From a virus (taxonomy: Duplodnaviria > Heunggongvirae > Uroviricota > Caudoviricetes), in IMG/VR virus record IMGVR_UViG_2671181134_000003: DNA of 19,496 nucleotides. One strand, 5' to 3'. The notes beneath the pieces are model-generated. The model saw only the letters and a list, made by a program, of their open reading frames with translations. It ran no database searches and was not told the origin of the DNA. Position 1 is the stretch's first letter; each line of letters starts with the position of its first letter. Of the stretch, positions 1 to 5,942 are shown in pieces. The translations under genes were made by a program, and so were the position numbers.

Positions 1-779
1 ACGAACTGGTTGTTAAAGGGATAAATATTTACCCGGATAAGATTACTGTTACTGTGGCGCTGGAAACTGGTGGGTATACGTCACTGTTGTTGCCAAATGT
101 GGTGATTGATCTTGATCGTGTTGAAGGTGCCCCGCTGGAGTTTTACGAAGCTGAGGCGAAAAAGAAGGCGAAGCAGTTTTTCATGGATATTGCTGCCGGG
201 TTATGTGAAGGGAACGAACCGTTGCCGGAAAAGCGCCTTTGTTCAGAAGAGCGGTATACCATACAAATTAACAATGCATATAACACGATACAGTCAGAAA
301 AAGATGATATCGAATCACGCATTGAAAAACTGGAGAACAGCGTCGTTGAACTGAATAAAAAACTGTCGGTGCAGATCCCTTCCGAAGGTGAAAAAAAACG
401 CCGTGATGAGCAGTTCGCGGCGTTTTACGATTATTGCCGGAAAGTGATGAGCAGAAATCTCGCAGAGTGTTTCCGTATTCAAAAAAACAGAGAGCGCTCT
501 GCAAATAGTGAAATTCTGGATAATTTTTTAAAGGGGACGCATCTCGCCAGTGATTGTTTCATTGCTCATTCTTTTGGTGGCTTTCATGAGGCCATCAAAC
601 ATGATGTTGAGAGAAGTCCAGGTATCCTCTGTTCCATTCCCGTAAGCATCGAAATAGACACAAATACGATAACCGGTGAACTCGTTACTGCCGGAGTCGG
701 TATATTCCGTCATGAGGGGAACGATGCCAAAGGTTCCTTTACAAAAATCGGGCCGTTCTTTCTGAAGGTAGAGCGATAG
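1..779 (+). CDS. hypothetical protein, C-terminal part (reading frame open from window start; 5' end outside window)
   Basis: Frame 3 has no stop from nt 3 to TAG 777-779 (about 258 codons). Codon usage looks genuine (CTG/GAA/AAA preferred). No Shine-Dalgarno before the first GTG at 54, consistent with the start lying upstream of the window. Overlaps the 3' end of the convergent - strand ORF by about 250 nt, so one of the two may be a shadow ORF. No family recognised. Confidence 0.45.
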   Translation, partial: ELVVKGINIYPDKITVTVALETGGYTSLLLPNVVIDLDRVEGAPLEFYEAEAKKKAKQFFMDIAAGLCEGNEPLPEKRLCSEERYTIQINNAYNTIQSEKDDIESRIEKLENSVVELNKKLSVQIPSEGEKKRRDEQFAAFYDYCRKVMSRNLAECFRIQKNRERSANSEILDNFLKGTHLASDCFIAHSFGGFHEAIKHDVERSPGILCSIPVSIEIDTNTITGELVTAGVGIFRHEGNDAKGSFTKIGPFFLKVER

Positions 780-1160
780 TTTGTTAAGTACCCATCCGAC
801 AGCTCGCTCATTTTGGTTTATTTTCGTATCGCGAAACAAAAATTCGAAGCGGCCAGATGACGCATGGGTGCAACCAAATACCGGGGCGTATTCATCAACC
901 TTTGGTGTTCCTGAAAACATGCAGTCCGTGCTCTCGAATGCAGATGAATTGCTGTTGATCCACTTAACAAAAGAAAAAAAGGTCTGAATCGCTTGTCTGT
1001 CTGAATATTCAACAAAATCCTCAAGGTGTGTCTCGATCAGTTCCGGGTGTTTACGAAAGTCATAATATTGACCGGGACGATATTTATGAGTGGTTGTTTT
1101 ATCCCATGGTTGTGCTCTGCGTCCCTGTAAACGGAGGTCTGCCGCTGGATAGATAAGCAT
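528..1160 (-). CDS. hypothetical protein (about 210 aa), opposite strand to the phage late genes
   Basis: ATG at 1160-1158 is preceded by AGGAG (complement of 1168-1172) with a 7-nt spacer; stop TAA is the complement of 528-530. It is a long ORF in AT-rich DNA. The ORF-track start at 1229 is rejected in favour of the SD-supported ATG. No family recognised. Confidence 0.5.
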   Translation of the reverse strand: MLIYPAADLRLQGRRAQPWDKTTTHKYRPGQYYDFRKHPELIETHLEDFVEYSDRQAIQTFFSFVKWINSNSSAFESTDCMFSGTPKVDEYAPVFGCTHASSGRFEFLFRDTKINQNERAVGWVLNKLSLYLQKERPDFCKGTFGIVPLMTEYTDSGSNEFTGYRICVYFDAYGNGTEDTWTSLNIMFDGLMKATKRMSNETITGEMRPL

Positions 1161-1290
1161 AAGTAATCTCCTGGTGGAATGTAATCCACGATCATCCGGG
1201 GAAATTAAGAACCCGCCAGTGCCCACCACTGGTGGGGTGAAGGCTTAACATATCCAGGGATTCGGAACCGATAAATCCTGATAAATATCC

Positions 1291-1824
1291 ATGAACACCA
1301 AAATCAAATACGGCCTGTCGGCTGCCGTTCTGGCGCTGATTGCCGCAGGGGCGCCTGCGCCTGATATTCTCGACCAGTTTCTGGATGAAAAAGAAGGTAA
1401 CCACACCACGGCATACCGTGATGGTGCGGGGATCTGGACCATTTGTCGTGGTGCCACCAGGGTGGATGGCAAACCTGTCGTCCCGGGCATGAAGTTGTCG
1501 AAGAAAAAATGCGACCAGGTTAACGCCATTGAGCGTGATAAGGCGCTGGCATGGGTGGAGAAAAACATCCGGGTGCCACTGACTGAACCCCAGAAAGCGG
1601 GGATCGCGTCATTCTGCCCGTATAACATTGGCCCCGGTAAGTGTTTCCCGTCGACGTTTTATAAACGAATTAATGCAGGCGATCGCAGGGGAGCGTGTGA
1701 AGCGATTCGCTGGTGGATTAAGGACGGTGGCAGAGACTGCCGTATCCGCTCAAACAACTGTTACGGCCAGATATCCCGTCGTGACCAGGAGAGCGCGCTG
1801 GCGTGCTGGGGAATCGACAGATAA
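1291..1824 (+). CDS. R: phage endolysin, lysozyme-like (GH24) with SAR-type signal-anchor N-terminus
   Basis: 177-aa ORF. N-terminal weakly hydrophobic Gly/Ala-rich segment (GLSAAVLALIAAGAPAP) is typical of a SAR domain. E-x8-D-x5-T catalytic spacing (EGNHTTAYRDGAGIWT) matches T4/P21-type lysozymes. Position is immediately upstream of the spanins. Confidence 0.9.
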   Translation: MNTKIKYGLSAAVLALIAAGAPAPDILDQFLDEKEGNHTTAYRDGAGIWTICRGATRVDGKPVVPGMKLSKKKCDQVNAIERDKALAWVEKNIRVPLTEPQKAGIASFCPYNIGPGKCFPSTFYKRINAGDRRGACEAIRWWIKDGGRDCRIRSNNCYGQISRRDQESALACWGIDR

Positions 1825-1913
1825 GCAGAATATTTTGCTGAAAAATGACGTTGGCCAACGCGGACGGATAACACGAAATCCTGCGAACTGGCAAAACCTA
1901 AGTGAATAAAAGT

Positions 1914-1955
1914 AAAAACCCCGTTTGTTGGCAGCAAGCGGGGTTTTGTGTTTCT
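1914..1955. terminator. bidirectional intrinsic terminator-like hairpin downstream of the endolysin
   Basis: CCCCG (1919-1923) pairs with CGGGG (1939-1943) around a 15-nt loop. It is flanked by an A-run (1914-1918) and a T-run (1944-1947, then GTGTTTCT), so either strand gives a hairpin followed by U-rich sequence. Confidence 0.45.
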
Positions 1956-1980
1956 GACCTTGGATAAGGCAAGGGAGAAC

Positions 1981-2163
1981 ATGGAAAAGTATAAACGAAT
2001 TCTGTTGAGGTTGACTATGAAAAACGGCCTTGAACTGAAAGCGCCTGTAACTGATGACATCAGCAGAGCGCTGGCTTTTGCTATTAAGTGGGTGGCGGTC
2101 GGTGTTGCTGTGTCCCCGATGCTGTATGGGCTGGCAAAACTGGTCATTGCGTTGAAATCGTGA
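1981..2163 (+). CDS. small membrane protein (60 aa from ATG 1981; in-frame GTG at 1948 is an alternative), one C-terminal TM helix
   Basis: AAGGGAG at 1971-1977 precedes ATG 1981. Basic N-terminus followed by a hydrophobic stretch ([28 protein letters not shown]). Stop TGA at 2161-2163. Confidence 0.4.
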
Positions 2164-2177
2164 AGGGAGGATTAAGC

Positions 2178-2309
2178 ATGTCAGACAAACTCATAACGCT
2201 GGCGAAGATCCTCTGTGTAATTGTCGGCATTTCATTTTCACTAATGCTGGTTGCTCTTTTTCTTTCCATGGCCTGGATGATGTTGTCTTCGTCGGGGCTG
2301 CTGGGGTGA
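2178..2309 (+). CDS. small membrane peptide (43 aa), single TM helix
   Basis: Strong SD GAAGGGAGG (2162-2170), 7-nt spacer, ATG 2178. Sequence [36 protein letters not shown] is almost entirely one TM segment. Stop TGA 2307-2309 overlaps the GTG at 2306 of the next gene (GTGA). Confidence 0.5.
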
Positions 2310-2779
2310 ACATAAACCGAATGCTTTCCGCGTTTATCGTTATTCTGCTGGTGGCCTGTGGAGCGATGTGGATGGCAACAGACCATTACCGTGATAACGC
2401 GATTACCTACAAAGCGCAGCGCGATAACAAAGCCAGTGAACTGAAGCTGGCGAACGCAACCATTACTGATATGCAGGTGCGCCAGCGCGATGTTGCTGCG
2501 CTCGATGCAAAATACTCGAGGGAATTAGCCGATGCGAGAGCTGAAAATGAAACTCTTCGCGCTGACGTTGCCGCTGGTCGTAAGCGCCTGCGGATCAACG
2601 CCACCTGTCCAGGCTCCGTGCGTGAAGCCCCCACCACCTCCGGCGTGGATAATGCAACCGGCCCCAGACTGGCAGACGCCGCTGAACGGGATTATTTCAT
2701 CCTCAGAGAACGGTTGATGACAATGCAGAAGCAGCTGGAAGGGGCACAGCTATACATTCGTGAGCAATGCCTCAGATAA
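2306..2779 (+). CDS. Rz: i-spanin (Rz), inner-membrane spanin subunit
   Basis: N-terminal TM segment followed by [14 protein letters not shown]...[11 protein letters not shown]...QKQLEG, closely matching lambda Rz as I recall it. Start is either GTG 2306 (coupled to the preceding stop) or ATG 2321. Stop TAA 2777-2779. Confidence 0.88.
2532..2717 (+). CDS. Rz1: o-spanin (Rz1), outer-membrane lipoprotein, nested in the +1 frame inside Rz
   Basis: 61-aa ORF entirely inside Rz in a different frame. Lipobox-like LVVSAC followed by a proline-rich stretch ([27 protein letters not shown]) that is near-identical to lambda Rz1. SD GAGGGA sits 8 nt upstream of ATG 2532. Confidence 0.85.
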
Positions 2780-3139
2780 AAACCGGCCAAGGATAATCCG
2801 CTGAAGATTTGCCGGTGGCTAAAGGGGCCAAGCCACCAATTTACGTAATTAGCCACAGAGATACAATATTTTAGTTTACTTATGTATTTCTGAAGCATGT
2901 CTTTGCGCAGTATCGTCGCCGTATTCCCACATGAACAGAGACCGCAGCCCTACCGGGAGACTCCTCTGCGCGAGTGTGCGGGGATAATCAAAAACGATAC
3001 ACACCGGGGTTTACCGCGTTAACGGAGCGCGGCGTTGTCCCCTCATAGTCGCCTGTCCGGTGCGATGGTGGAAGAAACCGGACTACATTGAAAATGATAA
3101 CCATTATCATTTTTGCGGGTCCTCCTGGTGGGGTGGGCC

Positions 3140-3345
3140 TGAACACGGGGCGGGCGGCGCGGAAAAAGGCGCATTTTTGTGATTTTATCGTCATCATCAT
3201 CATAATGGTAACTTATTGTTTTTAATGTGTTTAGCATTAAAAAGATGATGATTGTGGTTGATTTTTGTTCGACATCTTTATATGGCGGCATTTCTTTACA
3301 AAAAAAGAGCCACTTTTGTTCAGCGGTTTATGTGGAGGGATGTAA
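3140..3345 (+). other. candidate cos region (cosN-like GC-rich core about 3145-3162 plus AT-rich cosB-like segment with inverted repeats)
   Basis: ACGGGGCGGGCGGCGCGG at 3145-3162 resembles the lambda cosN region (ACG|GGGCGGCGACCTCGCGGG) and lies about 200 nt upstream of the terS ATG; lambda cosN is about 190 nt upstream of Nu1. The AT-rich stretch that follows has inverted TCATCATC (3191-3198) / GATGATGA (3244-3251) repeats, which could be terS binding sites. The exact nick positions cannot be set from sequence alone. Confidence 0.4.
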
Positions 3346-3822
3346 ATGGACGGCGAGCTGAAAAATATGAAGTTAAATATTAATCAACTGGCAGCCCTTT
3401 CAGGTCTGCACCGGCAGACTGTTGCCGCCAGAATGGCGGATGTTCCTCTTGCACCAGGCAGTAATGAAAAGAAAAAACTGTATCTCCTGACGGATTTGAT
3501 TATTTCGTTGCTGGAAAAACCACCGACTTCCGAAGATGAAGAGATGAACCCACATGATCGGAAGGCATGGTATCAGTCCGAGCGCGAGCGTCTTAAATTT
3601 CAGCATGAAACTGTTCAGCTTGTGCCTGTCAGTGATGTCAGGCGGTCCTTTTCTGTCGTGGTGAAAGCGATAGTTCAGGTACTGGAAACCTGGCCTGACC
3701 GGCTGGAAAGGGACAGAGGGTGGACCGCATCACAACTGAATGAAGTACAGATTGTGGTTGATGAGATCCGCGACACACTGGAAAAGGCAGTCATTGACTG
3801 TTGTGATGAGGCCGATATGTGA
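3346..3822 (+). CDS. Nu1: terminase small subunit (Nu1-like, N-terminal HTH)
   Basis: SD GGAGGG (3334-3339) with a 6-nt spacer before ATG 3346. N-terminus (KLNINQLAALSGLHRQTVAARMADVPL) resembles lambda Nu1 (MEVNKKQLADIFGASIRTIQNWQ...). Sits immediately upstream of terL with a start/stop overlap. Confidence 0.8.
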   Translation: MDGELKNMKLNINQLAALSGLHRQTVAARMADVPLAPGSNEKKKLYLLTDLIISLLEKPPTSEDEEMNPHDRKAWYQSERERLKFQHETVQLVPVSDVRRSFSVVVKAIVQVLETWPDRLERDRGWTASQLNEVQIVVDEIRDTLEKAVIDCCDEADM

Positions 3823-5942
3823 ATCAGGTGAACGAGAGCCATAGCCGCGCATCCGATATCTGGCGCGAAGTGGCCTCGCTGTTTCGCCCACCTGGCCGGT
3901 TACCAGTAGCGGAAGCCATCAGGCGTTATATGCGGGTACCACGGGGAGCCAATACTTCCGGTCCGTGGGAGTCATCGCTGACGCCCTATATGATTGACCC
4001 CATTAATACATTATCAGCCCGTGAATATGACGCGGTGGTGTTTGTGGGACCTGCGCGAACCGGGAAAACCGAAGGGCTGATTGACGGCTGGATTGTGTAC
4101 GGCATCATCTGTGATCCGGCGGATATGCTGGTGGTGCAAATGACCGAGACGAAGGCGCGGGAACACTCCAGAACGCGTCTTTCCAGAACGTTTCGTCACA
4201 GCCCGGAGGTCAGTAAGCGTCTCAGTCCTTCCCGTAATGACAACAACGTCCACGATAAAATGTTTCTTGACGGCTCCTTCCTGAAGATTGGCTGGCCGTC
4301 GATCACTGTATTTTCTTCTTCGGATTACCGTCGTGTGGCGCTGACGGATTATGACCGTTTCCCTGAAAACGTGGACGGGGAAGGGGATGCCTTCACCCTG
4401 GCATCAAAGCGTACCACCACCTTTATGTCCTCGGGGATGACCCTGGTCGAGAGTTCGCCGGGGCGGGATATCACTGACACCAAATGGCGCTGTGGCGGCG
4501 CACATGAGGCACCGCCAACAACGGGGATCCTGTCACTGTATAACCGGGGAGACCGCCGCCGGTGGTACTGGCCGTGTCCGCACTGCGGGGAATATTTTCA
4601 GCCGGTGATGGATAACATGACCGGATACCGGAATAACCCGGATTTTGTGGCTGCCGGTCAGGCTGCCCGTCTGATGTGTCCGCATTGTCGCGGGCTGATT
4701 GCCCCTGAGCAGAAACGCGAACTGAATAACAAAGGGATCTGGCTTCGTGAAGGTGAACGGGCGGTGGCGGACGGCAGTATCACCGGAACGCCACGAAATT
4801 CCCGGATTGCGTCATTCTGGATGGAGGGGCCGGCCGCGGCGTTTCAGACCTGGGAACAACTGATTTTTAAACTGCTGGCGGCAGAAGAAGAGTATGAGCG
4901 AACCGGCAGTGAAGAGACCCTGAAAGCGGTGGTGAACACCGATATCGGACGCCCCTATCTGCCCCGTTCAGCCACGGAACAGCGTAAAAGTGAACTGCTT
5001 GAACAGCGTGCCGAGCCGTTTCCCCGGCGATCTGTGCCGGATGGTGTGCGTTTTATTGAGGCAACGGTTGACGTACAGGGCGGTAAAAATCGCCGTTTTG
5101 TTGTGCAGATCACCGGATACGGAGAGCAGGGGGAACGCTGGATTGTTGATCGCTATAACATCCGGCATTCACTGCGCTGCAGTCCCAACGGTGAAAGTCT
5201 GCCGGTTGATCCGGCGGCATATCCGGAGGACTGGGATTTGTTGCTGACGGATGTGTTCCATAAAACATGGCCGCTGGCTTCTGATCCGGATGTGCGCATG
5301 CGTCTGATGGCCATGGCGGTGGATACGGGAGGGGAAGCCGGGGTGACAGATAACGCCTATCGTTTCTGGCGTCGTTGCCGGAGTGACGGACTGGGCAACA
5401 GGGTGTTTCTGTTCAAGGGGGATGGTCTTCGCCGTGACAGGCTGATTAACCGTACCTTCCCGGATAATACCGGCAGAAGTGCCCGCCGTGCCAGAGCCAG
5501 TGGCGATGTCGCGCTGTGGCTGGTTCAGACGGATGCGTTTAAGGACCGTGTAAATAATGCCCTGTGGCGTGACACACCAGGGCCGAACTATATCCACTTT
5601 CCCGACTGGCTGGGGCGGTGGTTTTACGATGAGCTGACCTATGAAGAGCGCGGCAGTGACGGAAAATGGCGAAAACCGGGCAGGGGCGCTAACGAGGCGT
5701 TTGACCTGCTGGTTTATGCGGATGCGCTTGCCGTTCTGCATGGTTACGAAAAGATCCGCTGGCCCTCCGCACCGGACTGGGCACAGCGGGAAACGTGGCT
5801 CGTCTTCCCGCAGGAGCGTTCTGGTGAAACGGTATCCCCGGAACTGACGGCCGGGGCAGAAAAACGCCGTCGCCGGAAGAAAAAACTGCGGACGGAGCGT
5901 GCGGAAGATAATCCATGGATAACATCAGGAGGCTGGTTGTGA
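3819..5942 (+). CDS. A: terminase large subunit (lambda gpA family)
   Basis: 707-aa ORF with a Walker A-like GPARTGKT motif, a conserved SLFRP N-terminal motif and a CPHCGEYF zinc-finger-like motif as in lambda gpA (CPHCGEE). GTG start at 3819 overlaps the terS stop. Stop TGA 5940-5942. Confidence 0.95.
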   Translation: MNQVNESHSRASDIWREVASLFRPPGRLPVAEAIRRYMRVPRGANTSGPWESSLTPYMIDPINTLSAREYDAVVFVGPARTGKTEGLIDGWIVYGIICDPADMLVVQMTETKAREHSRTRLSRTFRHSPEVSKRLSPSRNDNNVHDKMFLDGSFLKIGWPSITVFSSSDYRRVALTDYDRFPENVDGEGDAFTLASKRTTTFMSSGMTLVESSPGRDITDTKWRCGGAHEAPPTTGILSLYNRGDRRRWYWPCPHCGEYFQPVMDNMTGYRNNPDFVAAGQAARLMCPHCRGLIAPEQKRELNNKGIWLREGERAVADGSITGTPRNSRIASFWMEGPAAAFQTWEQLIFKLLAAEEEYERTGSEETLKAVVNTDIGRPYLPRSATEQRKSELLEQRAEPFPRRSVPDGVRFIEATVDVQGGKNRRFVVQITGYGEQGERWIVDRYNIRHSLRCSPNGESLPVDPAAYPEDWDLLLTDVFHKTWPLASDPDVRMRLMAMAVDTGGEAGVTDNAYRFWRRCRSDGLGNRVFLFKGDGLRRDRLINRTFPDNTGRSARRARASGDVALWLVQTDAFKDRVNNALWRDTPGPNYIHFPDWLGRWFYDELTYEERGSDGKWRKPGRGANEAFDLLVYADALAVLHGYEKIRWPSAPDWAQRETWLVFPQERSGETVSPELTAGAEKRRRRKKKLRTERAEDNPWITSGGWL

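What the first reader, a model, noticed from the sequence alone, without database searches (positions are those of the whole stretch)
1161..1824. SAR-type endolysin with no adjacent holin and no Shine-Dalgarno, divergent from the - strand gene
The endolysin has a SAR-like N-terminus (GLSAAVLALIAAGAPAP) and E-x8-D-x5-T lysozyme spacing. SAR endolysins normally partner with a pinholin encoded directly upstream, but here the upstream neighbour is a divergent - strand gene, and the 20 nt before ATG 1291 (GATAAATCCTGATAAATATCC) contain no GGAG/AGGA/GAGG. The 130-bp divergent intergenic region contains a near-palindrome, CCCACCA-C-TGGTGGG (1222-1236), that could be an operator or hairpin. The lysis cassette appears rearranged: the holin is either further upstream outside the window, or its role is taken by the small membrane peptides downstream of R.
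Basis: partly seen in the sequence, partly recalled or inferred. Interest (0 to 1): 0.4.

Follow-up and report, generated by a model that had tools for sequence, protein, structure and literature searches.

The report
Endolysin whose holin lies just off-window
This is the ordinary lysis cassette of a Shiga-toxin-phage-like E. coli prophage; its holin appears missing only because the window starts 16 bases after that gene ends, and two cargo genes sit between holin and endolysin.

Summary
The sequence features are real. ORF 1291-1824 is a 177-aa GH24 lysozyme with E35-x8-D44-x5-T50 and a weakly hydrophobic N-terminus. It is 93% identical to the phage 933W endolysin R that the Young laboratory uses as a SAR endolysin. 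It has no Shine-Dalgarno, and a minus-strand gene starts at 1160.

The "missing holin" is a window-edge effect. The window begins 13 nt inside a DUF1327/YdfR-family gene. In all 19 relatives inspected, that gene directly follows a phage-21-type class II holin S. These include 8 of 8 contigs encoding the identical R protein, where S ends about 1.3 kb upstream of R. E. coli K-12 Qin has the same order, essQ-ydfR-rrrQ.

Positions 438-1214 are a 777-bp minus-strand cargo cassette inserted between ydfR and R. The SD-less leader is the native ydfR-R spacer and is the least structured, most AU-rich start region in the window.

The small membrane ORFs downstream of R also occur in PhiR12_4, where S directly abuts R, so they do not replace the holin.

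The palindrome belongs to a conserved 10-bp hairpin (1212-1236) at the cassette junction. Its function is unknown.

Verdict: already known and ordinary. The only fresh item is the uncharacterised 210-aa cargo protein family.

The parts
1..779 (+). DUF1327/YdfR-family gene, cut by the window edge; its ATG lies 13 nt upstream of position 1. The part homologous to the family ends near 492. The rest, up to the stop at 777-779, is read-through into the inserted cassette.
   Evidence: PF07041 at E 8e-31; phrog_2091 matches residues 1-163 only. PGAP marks it as a pseudogene lacking its C-terminus. The plus-frame extension is not conserved; it carries stops in the Salmonella homologue.
438..1214 (-). 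777-bp minus-strand cargo (moron-like) cassette inserted between the ydfR-like gene and the R leader.
   Evidence: Boundaries come from blastn against PhiR12_1, which has a different 303-bp segment here. Present nearly full-length in 132 of 5,426 complete E. coli genomes. GC is 43-46% against 54-55% in R.
528..1160 (-). 210-aa protein of unknown function. It is the real gene in the region of overlap with the plus-strand ORF.
   Evidence: AGGAG lies 7 nt before the ATG, with an anti-SD duplex of -7.4 kcal/mol. Full-length homologues at 53-65% identity occur in Salmonella and a metagenome, in other prophage positions. Differences by codon position are 58/34/119 and 87/43/117. The family has 252 clusters at 50% identity. 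No Pfam, PHROG, PADLOC or NCBIfam hit.
487..502 (-). Terminator-like hairpin followed by a run of seven T, just downstream of the minus-strand ORF.
   Evidence: It is a consensus match only; its folding z-score is not significant.
1212..1236 (+). Conserved hairpin (10-bp stem, loop CCCAC) at the right-hand junction of the cassette.
   Evidence: -18.9 kcal/mol, z = -2.7. Present next to three different minus-strand cassettes. Single copy in the window. No Rfam match.
1238..1290 (+). SD-less leader of R, equal to the native ydfR-R spacer. TGA 1238-1240 aligns with the ydfR stop codon of strain S1-IVC-02-A.
   Evidence: Anti-SD duplex +0.6 kcal/mol, AU content 0.68, MFE of -30..+30 is -1.9 kcal/mol against -8 to -16 for the other genes.
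1291..1824 (+). Endolysin R (GH24 lysozyme, SAR type), 177 aa.
   Evidence: PF00959. 93% identical to 933W R and 89% to K-12 RrrQ. Homologous to the R21 structures 3hde/3hdf and to RrrD 4zpu.
1312..1362 (+). Coding region for the putative SAR domain, residues 8-24 (GLSAAVLALIAAGAPAP).
   Evidence: Read directly from the sequence. The segment is conserved in 933W R and RrrQ.
1915..1947 (+). Terminator-like hairpin between R and the small ORFs.
   Evidence: -21.1 kcal/mol, z = -3.6.
1981..2163 (+). 60-aa ORF with a hydrophobic C-terminal segment; function unknown.
   Evidence: Anti-SD duplex -8.4 kcal/mol; phrog_1115. Homologues only in Escherichia and Salmonella, all unnamed. Also present in PhiR12_4, where S abuts R.
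2178..2309 (+). 43-aa hydrophobic ORF; function unknown.
   Evidence: Anti-SD duplex -11.3 kcal/mol; phrog_4906. Also present in PhiR12_4.
2321..2779 (+). Rz, the inner-membrane spanin subunit (i-spanin).
   Evidence: PF03245 at E 1e-48; phrog_13.
2532..2717 (+). Rz1, the outer-membrane lipoprotein spanin subunit (o-spanin), embedded in Rz in the +1 frame. Lipobox VSAC.
   Evidence: PF06085 at E 1e-21; lipobox read from the translation.

Best explanation
The window opens in the middle of a standard pinholin / SAR-endolysin / spanin lysis cassette of an Stx-phage-like (Qin/933W-type) lambdoid prophage of E. coli.

Gene order, inferred from relatives:
- S, a 71-aa class II holin of the P21 family, ends 16 nt before window position 1.
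- A DUF1327/YdfR-family gene follows S.
- A 777-bp minus-strand cargo cassette (438-1214) sits at the 3' end of that gene.
- Then come the native ydfR-R spacer, R, two small ORFs, and Rz/Rz1.

How it most likely works (inferred, not shown here):
- The Q-antiterminated late transcript from pR' runs through S, ydfR and the antisense of the cassette into R.
- R is translated without a Shine-Dalgarno, from an unusually unstructured, AU-rich start region.
- R is exported by Sec and held inactive in the inner membrane by its N-terminal SAR domain.
- When the pinholin depolarises the membrane, R is released and activated.
- Rz/Rz1 then disrupt the outer membrane.

The hairpin at 1212-1236 marks the cassette junction. 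Its role is unknown.
For: Holin upstream in relatives:
- The nearest genomes (99.2% and 98.5% identical over 1-3400) carry a class II holin ending 16 nt before the position equivalent to window 1. It matches PF04971 at E 7e-33.
- Six of six loci with the same cassette have S.
- Eight of eight contigs encoding the identical R protein have S at the same distance of about 1.3 kb.
- In the loci translated (L003, L018), S is identical to 933W S and has the M1/M4 dual start.

The same order is widespread:
- essQ-ydfR-rrrQ-rzpQ/rzoQ in K-12 Qin.
- S contiguous with a ydfR-like gene in 1,407 of 5,426 genomes.

Module boundaries and the origin of the leader.

Transcription: no plus-strand terminator-like or promoter-like site between position 1 and R.

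Identity of R. 933W R is used as a SAR endolysin in PMC9239132. Pinto et al. (PMC8136144) predict a SAR endolysin plus pinholin in 99% of Stx phages.

Translation start: anti-SD duplex +0.6 kcal/mol, MFE -1.9 kcal/mol, AU 0.68, the extreme values in the window. The same leader (at least 80% covered) occurs in 751 genomes and in the deposited phage genome PhiR12_1. SD-independent initiation from unstructured, AU-rich leaders is established (review PMC4611024, which cites Scharff 2011 and Komarova 2005).

Spanins.
Against: - The DNA upstream of this particular window cannot be read, so the presence of S here is inferred from relatives. The best full-window match is about 97% identical.
- SAR behaviour (no signal-peptidase cleavage, release on depolarisation) has not been shown for this protein. 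The uncharged N-terminal stretch is short at 18 residues, and an AAG/A cleavage site cannot be excluded from sequence alone.
- The efficiency of SD-less translation of R is untested.
- No double compensatory change supports the hairpin, and one natural variant (T1220A, RM7190) weakens it.
Confidence: 0.87

Rival explanations
1. Holin-less or re-wired lysis. The small membrane ORFs downstream of R (1981-2163, 2178-2309) would supply the holin- or releasin-like function, as gp25 does for the Mu SAR endolysin.
For: - Both ORFs have strong Shine-Dalgarno sites and hydrophobic segments.
- They lie inside the lysis cassette.
- Mu shows that a SAR endolysin can work with a non-holin membrane partner (PMC9239132).
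Against: - S is present in all 19 related loci inspected.
- The two ORFs co-occur with an S gene that directly abuts R in PhiR12_4.
- They are absent from 933W and K-12 Qin, where related R alleles (89-93% identical) are found.
- They have no similarity to any holin or releasin family.
Confidence: 0.03
2. The N-terminus of R is an ordinary cleavable Sec signal peptide, making R a secreted endolysin rather than a membrane-tethered SAR enzyme.
For: - The uncharged stretch is only 18 residues (Y7-P24).
- Small residues at A18-A19-G20 could form a cleavage site.
- No experiment on this exact protein is available.
Against: - 10 of 17 residues in the stretch are Gly/Ala/Ser, which is typical of SAR domains.
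- The catalytic Glu lies 11 residues after the stretch, with the same E35/D44/T50 numbering as R21, whose SAR mechanism has been solved structurally.
- The 93%-identical 933W R is handled as a SAR endolysin, and its action is enhanced by the Mu releasin (PMC9239132).
- The P22 of this allele places Pro at +1 of the AGA site seen in 933W R. From general knowledge, Pro at +1 blocks signal peptidase I.
- Its partner is a pinholin-family S, whose small holes would not let a cytoplasmic endolysin through.
Confidence: 0.07
3. A decaying lysis module. The cassette insertion disrupted ydfR and uncoupled R from upstream translation, so R is poorly expressed and the prophage is defective in lysis.
For: - PGAP flags the DUF1327 gene as a pseudogene.
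- R has neither a Shine-Dalgarno nor an upstream ORF ending at its start. In K-12, by contrast, ydfR overlaps rrrQ by ATGA.
Against: - R is intact, and the identical protein is indexed in 1,352 blocks of the assembly collection.
- The same SD-less spacer is native in the uninterrupted S-ydfR-R arrangement of strain S1-IVC-02-A.
- It is also present in the deposited phage genome PhiR12_1 and in Stx1a-converting phages.
- The start region is exceptionally open.
- Rz/Rz1, terminase and the head genes downstream are intact.
Confidence: 0.06

Closest known systems
Phage 933W and other Stx-phage lysis cassettes (S pinholin, R SAR endolysin, Rz/Rz1)
   Same: R is 93% identical. The S of the nearest relatives is identical to 933W S. 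Rz/Rz1 are embedded in the same way. The cassette sits after nanS-p, DUF1378 and DUF826 and before the terminase genes.
   Different: In 933W, S abuts R with a 4-nt gap, and a GGAG Shine-Dalgarno for R lies inside the end of S. Here about 1.3 kb (a ydfR-like gene plus a minus-strand cassette) intervenes and R has no Shine-Dalgarno. 933W has ant between R and Rz; this window has two small ORFs instead.
E. coli K-12 cryptic prophage Qin: essQ-ydfR-rrrQ-rzpQ/rzoQ
   Same: The gene order holin, DUF1327 (YdfR), lysozyme, spanins is the same. RrrQ is 89% identical and shares the MNTKI N-terminus. The 15 nt before the ATG are homologous and also lack a Shine-Dalgarno.
   Different: In K-12, ydfR is short (312 nt) and its stop overlaps the rrrQ start (ATGA), which allows translational coupling. 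Here the ydfR-like gene is a long form interrupted by a minus-strand cassette, and no ORF ends at the R start.
Phage 21 S21 pinholin / R21 SAR endolysin (the mechanistic paradigm)
   Same: The holin of the relatives belongs to the same Pfam family, PF04971. The lysozyme is of the same GH24 type with E35/D44/T50 and an N-terminal weakly hydrophobic domain without Cys.
   Different: R is only distantly related to R21 in sequence (phmmer E 3e-16). The mechanism is inferred by homology and was not tested for this protein.
Phage Mu gp22 SAR endolysin with gp25 releasin (a truly holin-less system)
   Same: A SAR endolysin with basic residues ahead of its SAR domain, and small membrane proteins encoded downstream.
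   Different: Mu lacks a holin (PMC9239132), whereas relatives of this locus all carry S. No DUF2730 or releasin-like protein was detected here.

Membership tests
SAR endolysin (GH24, R21/933W-R type) | T4-lysozyme-like (GH24) domain with the catalytic triad E-x8-D/C-x5-T | tested here: met
   PF00959 at E 1.5e-24. E35, D44 and T50 were read from the sequence. The alignment to R21 (3hde) runs residue 30 to residue 30.
SAR endolysin (GH24, R21/933W-R type) | N-terminal uncharged, weakly hydrophobic (Gly/Ala/Ser-rich) transmembrane segment preceded by basic residues | tested here: met
   K4 and K6, then Y7-P24 uncharged. 10 of 17 residues in 8-24 are G/A/S. The segment is conserved in 933W R and RrrQ.
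SAR endolysin (GH24, R21/933W-R type) | Sec export without signal-peptidase cleavage; membrane-tethered and inactive until depolarisation releases it | not testable with these tools
   This needs fractionation, Western blots and energy-poison experiments. The only indirect support is 93% identity to 933W R, which is used as a SAR endolysin (PMC9239132).
Pinholin-SAR endolysin lysis cassette | A class II (P21 S family) holin gene in the same late transcription unit, upstream of R | tested here: met
   Met in relatives. PF04971 at E 7e-33 in L003. S is present in all 19 related loci inspected, including 8 of 8 with the identical R protein.
Pinholin-SAR endolysin lysis cassette | The holin gene is present in this very genome | not testable with these tools
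   The window starts 16 nt downstream of where S ends in relatives. The upstream DNA of the source is not available.
Two-component embedded spanin (Rz/Rz1) | An i-spanin with an N-terminal transmembrane segment, plus an o-spanin lipoprotein ORF embedded in the +1 frame | tested here: met
   PF03245 at E 1e-48 and PF06085 at E 1e-21. Rz1 (2532-2717) lies inside Rz (2321-2779). The lipobox VSAC is visible in the translation.
Moron (autonomous cargo cassette in a prophage late operon) | A gene absent from otherwise collinear relatives, with deviating base composition and found in other prophage positions | tested here: met
   The segment 438-1214 is replaced or absent in PhiR12_1, Stx2_12E129, S1-IVC-02-A, K-12 and 933W. 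GC is 43-46% against 54-55% in R. Homologues lie beside tail genes or sodC elsewhere.
Moron (autonomous cargo cassette in a prophage late operon) | Its own promoter and terminator | tested here: inconclusive
   A terminator-like hairpin with seven T is found at 502->487 on the minus strand. No sigma-70-like promoter was found in 1161-1290 at the scan threshold.
Holin-less releasin system (Mu type) | No holin, and a DUF2730 membrane-tethered releasin near the endolysin | tested here: not met
   The holin is present in relatives. There is no DUF2730 hit for any ORF scanned between positions 1 and 3822.

The most novel reading that the evidence does not exclude
The S-R interval may be a regulated cargo slot rather than a passive insertion site.

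- The 210-aa minus-strand gene belongs to a broad uncharacterised family with no Pfam model. The family has 252 clusters at 50% identity. D48, E76, D79, R104, R110, N115 and G174 are invariant in an alignment of 29 members.
- It could be expressed in the lysogen, antisense to the late transcript.
- The conserved junction hairpin and the SD-less, structure-free leader could then uncouple endolysin dosage from holin translation, and shield it from that antisense transcription.

If so, the arrangement would be a previously undescribed post-transcriptional control of SAR-endolysin level and lysis timing.
Probability: 0.12. Interest if true: 0.4.

Novelty: already known. Interest (0 to 1): 0.12.

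Why it matters
It matters little for lysis biology. The locus is a standard Stx/Qin-type pinholin, SAR endolysin and spanin cassette, and the apparent anomaly comes from where the window was cut.

Three practical points follow:
- Lysis genes in these prophages are often separated by cargo, so "no adjacent holin" is not evidence of holin-independent lysis.
- The SD-less R leader is a lineage trait of ydfR-linked R alleles. It is a tidy natural example of initiation from an unstructured, AU-rich start region.
- A conserved 210-aa cargo gene is systematically missed by PGAP, or masked by an overlapping spurious plus-strand ORF call.

Tried and rejected
Function of the 210-aa minus-strand protein:
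- Pfam, PHROGs, PADLOC and NCBIfam gave no hit.
- A Pfam scan of 29 family members gave only one stray DUF2934 hit.
- A profile search against PDB sequences found nothing.
- The AlphaFold2 model has mean pLDDT 67.7; residues 53-210 are confident and 1-52 are not.
- Foldseek against PDB found nothing significant.
- BFVD returned only uncharacterised jumbo-phage proteins at E about 1e-4.
- The afdb50 library was unavailable.

RNA and regulatory signals:
- Rfam on 1-3400 gave only a sub-threshold rimP-leader hit at 1905-1979, minus strand, E 0.36, which I judge to be chance.
- The promoter scan found no site in 1161-1290, so the "divergent promoter/operator" idea has no support from consensus matching.

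An idea I dropped:
- I considered that the R leader is a coding remnant of the 3' end of ydfR. Only the last roughly 15 nt are shared with K-12 ydfR. In strain S1-IVC-02-A the 50-nt leader is the genuine ydfR-R intergenic spacer.

Literature:
- Searches for DUF1327 together with holin or endolysin, for ydfR/essQ/rrrQ, and for the PhiR12 phages gave nothing useful.

Full report
**What is in the window.**
- The first 6 kb read as the late region of a lambdoid prophage.
- In order, it holds:
  - a 5'-truncated DUF1327 gene (1-779, plus strand);
  - a 210-aa minus-strand ORF (1160->528);
  - a 177-aa lysozyme R (1291-1824, PF00959);
  - two small ORFs (1981-2163, 2178-2309);
  - Rz (2321-2779, PF03245) with embedded Rz1 (2532-2717, PF06085);
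  - a DUF1441 small terminase (3346-3822) and a GpA-type large terminase (3819-5942).
- Megablast places it among Stx-converting and related E. coli phages and prophages.
- The best matches are E. coli LZSFT34 (99.2% over 1-3400) and S19-651 (98.5%).

**Checking the observation.**
- All the sequence statements hold.
- R starts at the first possible start codon in its frame, ATG 1291.
- Residues 8-24 are GLSAAVLALIAAGAPAP, preceded by K4 and K6.
- E35, D44 and T50 give E-x8-D-x5-T.
- The 21 nt upstream of the ATG carry no Shine-Dalgarno core.
- The best duplex between the last 20 nt and the 16S 3' end is +0.6 kcal/mol, against -5.6 to -11.7 kcal/mol for most other genes in the window. The one other gene with no detectable Shine-Dalgarno is the protease-capsid gene at the ATG I took as its start (-0.1).
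- The minus-strand gene begins at ATG 1160 behind an AGGAG. All its homologues begin at that Met, so the intergenic gap is 130 bp.
- The palindrome CCCACCA-C-TGGTGGG is at 1222-1236.

**Where the holin is.**
- The window starts 13 nt inside the DUF1327 ORF.
- In LZSFT34 and S19-651, a 71-aa "class II holin family protein" ends 16 nt before the position equivalent to window 1, and the DUF1327 ATG follows 3 nt after it.
- That protein matches PF04971, "Bacteriophage P21 holin S", at E 7e-33.
- It is identical to 933W S and has the M1/M4 dual start.
- The same holds in three further genomes carrying the identical 438-1214 cassette and in Stx1a phage Stx1_14040.
- An exact-sequence look-up of the window's R protein found it in 1,352 blocks of the assembly collection. 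In 8 of 8 places read, a PF04971 gene ends about 1.3 kb upstream of the R ATG, and 7 of the 8 are collinear with window 1-2648 or further.
- Other variants of the interval also start with S: PhiR12_1, Stx2_12E129, LAM_HS, S1-IVC-02-A and K-12 Qin.
- S contiguous with a ydfR-like 5' region is found in 1,407 of 5,426 complete E. coli genomes. That exceeds the 1,297 genomes with any match to window 1-300.

**Anatomy of the S-R interval.** Pairwise blastn and alignments resolve three arrangements:
- S abuts R with a 4-nt gap (933W, PhiR12_4). R then begins MSRKL, and a GGAG inside the 3' end of S serves as its Shine-Dalgarno (-8.5 kcal/mol).
- S-ydfR-R. In K-12 Qin the two genes overlap by ATGA. 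In S1-IVC-02-A a 50-nt spacer separates them. R begins MNTKI and has no Shine-Dalgarno.
- S, a ydfR-like gene, a minus-strand cassette, then R, with at least three different cassettes:
  - the 210-aa ORF, here and in Stx1_14040;
  - a 261-nt ORF in PhiR12_1 and LAM_HS;
  - a 315-nt ORF in Stx2_12E129.

In the window:
- Positions 1-437 are shared with PhiR12_1.
- Positions 438-1214 are the cassette.
- Positions 1215-1290 are shared again.
- TGA 1238-1240 aligns with the ydfR stop codon of S1-IVC-02-A, so 1241-1290 is the native ydfR-R spacer.
- The missing Shine-Dalgarno is therefore an inherited trait of ydfR-linked R alleles, not a consequence of rearrangement. The leader (at least 80% covered) occurs in 751 genomes.

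**How R can be translated.**
- No upstream ORF ends at the R start in this window, so K-12-style translational coupling is not available.
- The R start region is the most open in the window. The MFE of -30..+30 is -1.9 kcal/mol against -8 to -16 for the 17 other genes. Mean unpaired probability is 0.77 and AU content is 0.68.
- These are the recognised requirements for SD-independent initiation: local absence of structure and AU-rich S1-binding leaders (review PMC4611024, which cites Scharff 2011 and Komarova 2005).
- That this mechanism operates here is an inference.
- There is no plus-strand terminator-like or sigma-70-like site between position 1 and R. This fits R being read from the Q-antiterminated late transcript, which is established lambdoid biology but untested here.

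**SAR or signal peptide.**
- R is 93% identical to 933W R and 89% to K-12 RrrQ.
- It is homologous to the solved R21 (3hde/3hdf) and RrrD (4zpu) structures, with the same residue numbering.
- 933W R is handled as a SAR endolysin by the Young laboratory, and its action is enhanced by the Mu releasin (PMC9239132).
- Pinto et al. predict a SAR endolysin plus pinholin in 99% of Stx phages (PMC8136144).
- The SAR domain has no Cys, so regulation would be of the R21 type rather than P1-type disulfide caging. This is an inference.
- Cleavage by signal peptidase cannot be excluded in silico.
- This allele has P22 where 933W R has S22. That places Pro at +1 of the AGA motif, which from general knowledge disfavours cleavage.

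**The palindrome.**
- Folding gives a 10-bp stem (1212-1221 paired with 1227-1236), loop CCCAC, -18.9 kcal/mol, z = -2.7.
- The hairpin sits exactly at the right-hand junction of all three cassette types.
- Its right arm overlaps the last codons of ydfR in the uninterrupted arrangement.
- Variant T1220A (RM7190) weakens the stem.
- There is no double compensatory change, no Rfam match and no second copy in the window.
- It is real and conserved, but its function is unknown. Junction scar, RNA stabiliser and insulator are all possible.

**The minus-strand gene.**
- It is a genuine gene.
- Full-length homologues at 53-65% identity occur in Salmonella, next to sodC and a tail-gene remnant, and in a metagenomic prophage contig after the tail genes.
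- Substitutions concentrate at third codon positions of the minus frame (58/34/119 and 87/43/117). The overlapping plus frame carries stops in the Salmonella homologue.
- A profile search finds 252 clusters at 50% identity.
- D48, E76, D79, R104, R110, N115 and G174 are invariant in an alignment of 29 members.
- No family library, solved structure or fold search assigns a function.
- It has an AGGAG, and a hairpin with seven T follows it. The region has lower GC than R. It behaves as a mobile cargo gene.
- PGAP leaves it unannotated in most genomes. Other gene callers instead call the overlapping 263-aa plus-strand fusion ORF.

**The small ORFs.**
- Both have strong Shine-Dalgarno sites and hydrophobic segments.
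- They are confined to Escherichia and Salmonella prophages and are unnamed.
- They occur in PhiR12_4 together with an S gene that abuts R.
- They are absent from 933W and Qin.
- They therefore do not substitute for the holin. An accessory role in lysis is not excluded.

**Verdict.**
- The finding is a correct description of real sequence features.
- The anomaly, a SAR endolysin without a holin, is an artefact of the window boundary combined with a common, already-documented gene order (essQ-ydfR-rrrQ).
- Novelty: already known. Interest: low.

Noticed in passing
window 528-1160 (-): A conserved 210-aa protein family with no Pfam, PHROG, PADLOC or NCBIfam model. It has 252 clusters at 50% identity, and D48, E76, D79, R104, R110, N115 and G174 are invariant in an alignment of 29 members. 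PGAP leaves it unannotated in most E. coli genomes. It occurs at different prophage positions in Salmonella and in a metagenome contig, which fits a mobile cargo gene.
   Followed up: yes
window 1-779 (+) versus 528-1160 (-): The DUF1327 ORF reads through into the cassette for about 95 extra codons and overlaps the minus-strand gene by 252 nt. Some annotations call this 263-aa fusion as a protein, while PGAP calls a truncated pseudogene. Codon-position statistics and stops in the Salmonella homologue show that the plus-strand extension is not conserved coding sequence.
   Followed up: yes
window 1291-1308 and relatives L006, L008: The first six residues of R track the upstream neighbour: MN(T/A)KI(K/R) when a ydfR-type leader precedes it, and MSRKL(R/H) when S abuts R. 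The recombination boundary therefore lies about 27 nt inside R.
   Followed up: partly
window 1354-1356 (residue P22): This allele has Pro where 933W R and RrrQ have Ser, directly after the A-G-A motif of the SAR domain. Pro at +1 would be expected to block signal peptidase I at that site.
   Followed up: no
window 1915-1947 (+): A strong terminator-like hairpin (15 pairs, -21.1 kcal/mol, z = -3.6) followed by a T-rich tail sits between R and the small ORFs, inside the late operon. Reading through it would require Q antitermination.
   Followed up: partly
window 1981-2163 and 2178-2309 (+): Two small hydrophobic ORFs (60 and 43 aa) with strong Shine-Dalgarno sites lie between R and Rz. They are restricted to Escherichia and Salmonella prophages and have no named function. 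They occupy the slot that holds ant in 933W.
   Followed up: partly
window 2780-3345: A 566-bp stretch between Rz and the small terminase has no annotated gene in the closest genomes and is AT-rich near 3150-3450 (GC 0.41). This is where a cos site would be expected for a GpA-type terminase.
   Followed up: no
L015 (E. coli RM7190) and L022: A sub-variant lacks the segment equivalent to window 1-346 and has a shorter, 161-aa upstream ORF with no DUF1327 hit on record (L022). RM7190 also carries T1220A in the left arm of the junction hairpin.
   Followed up: no
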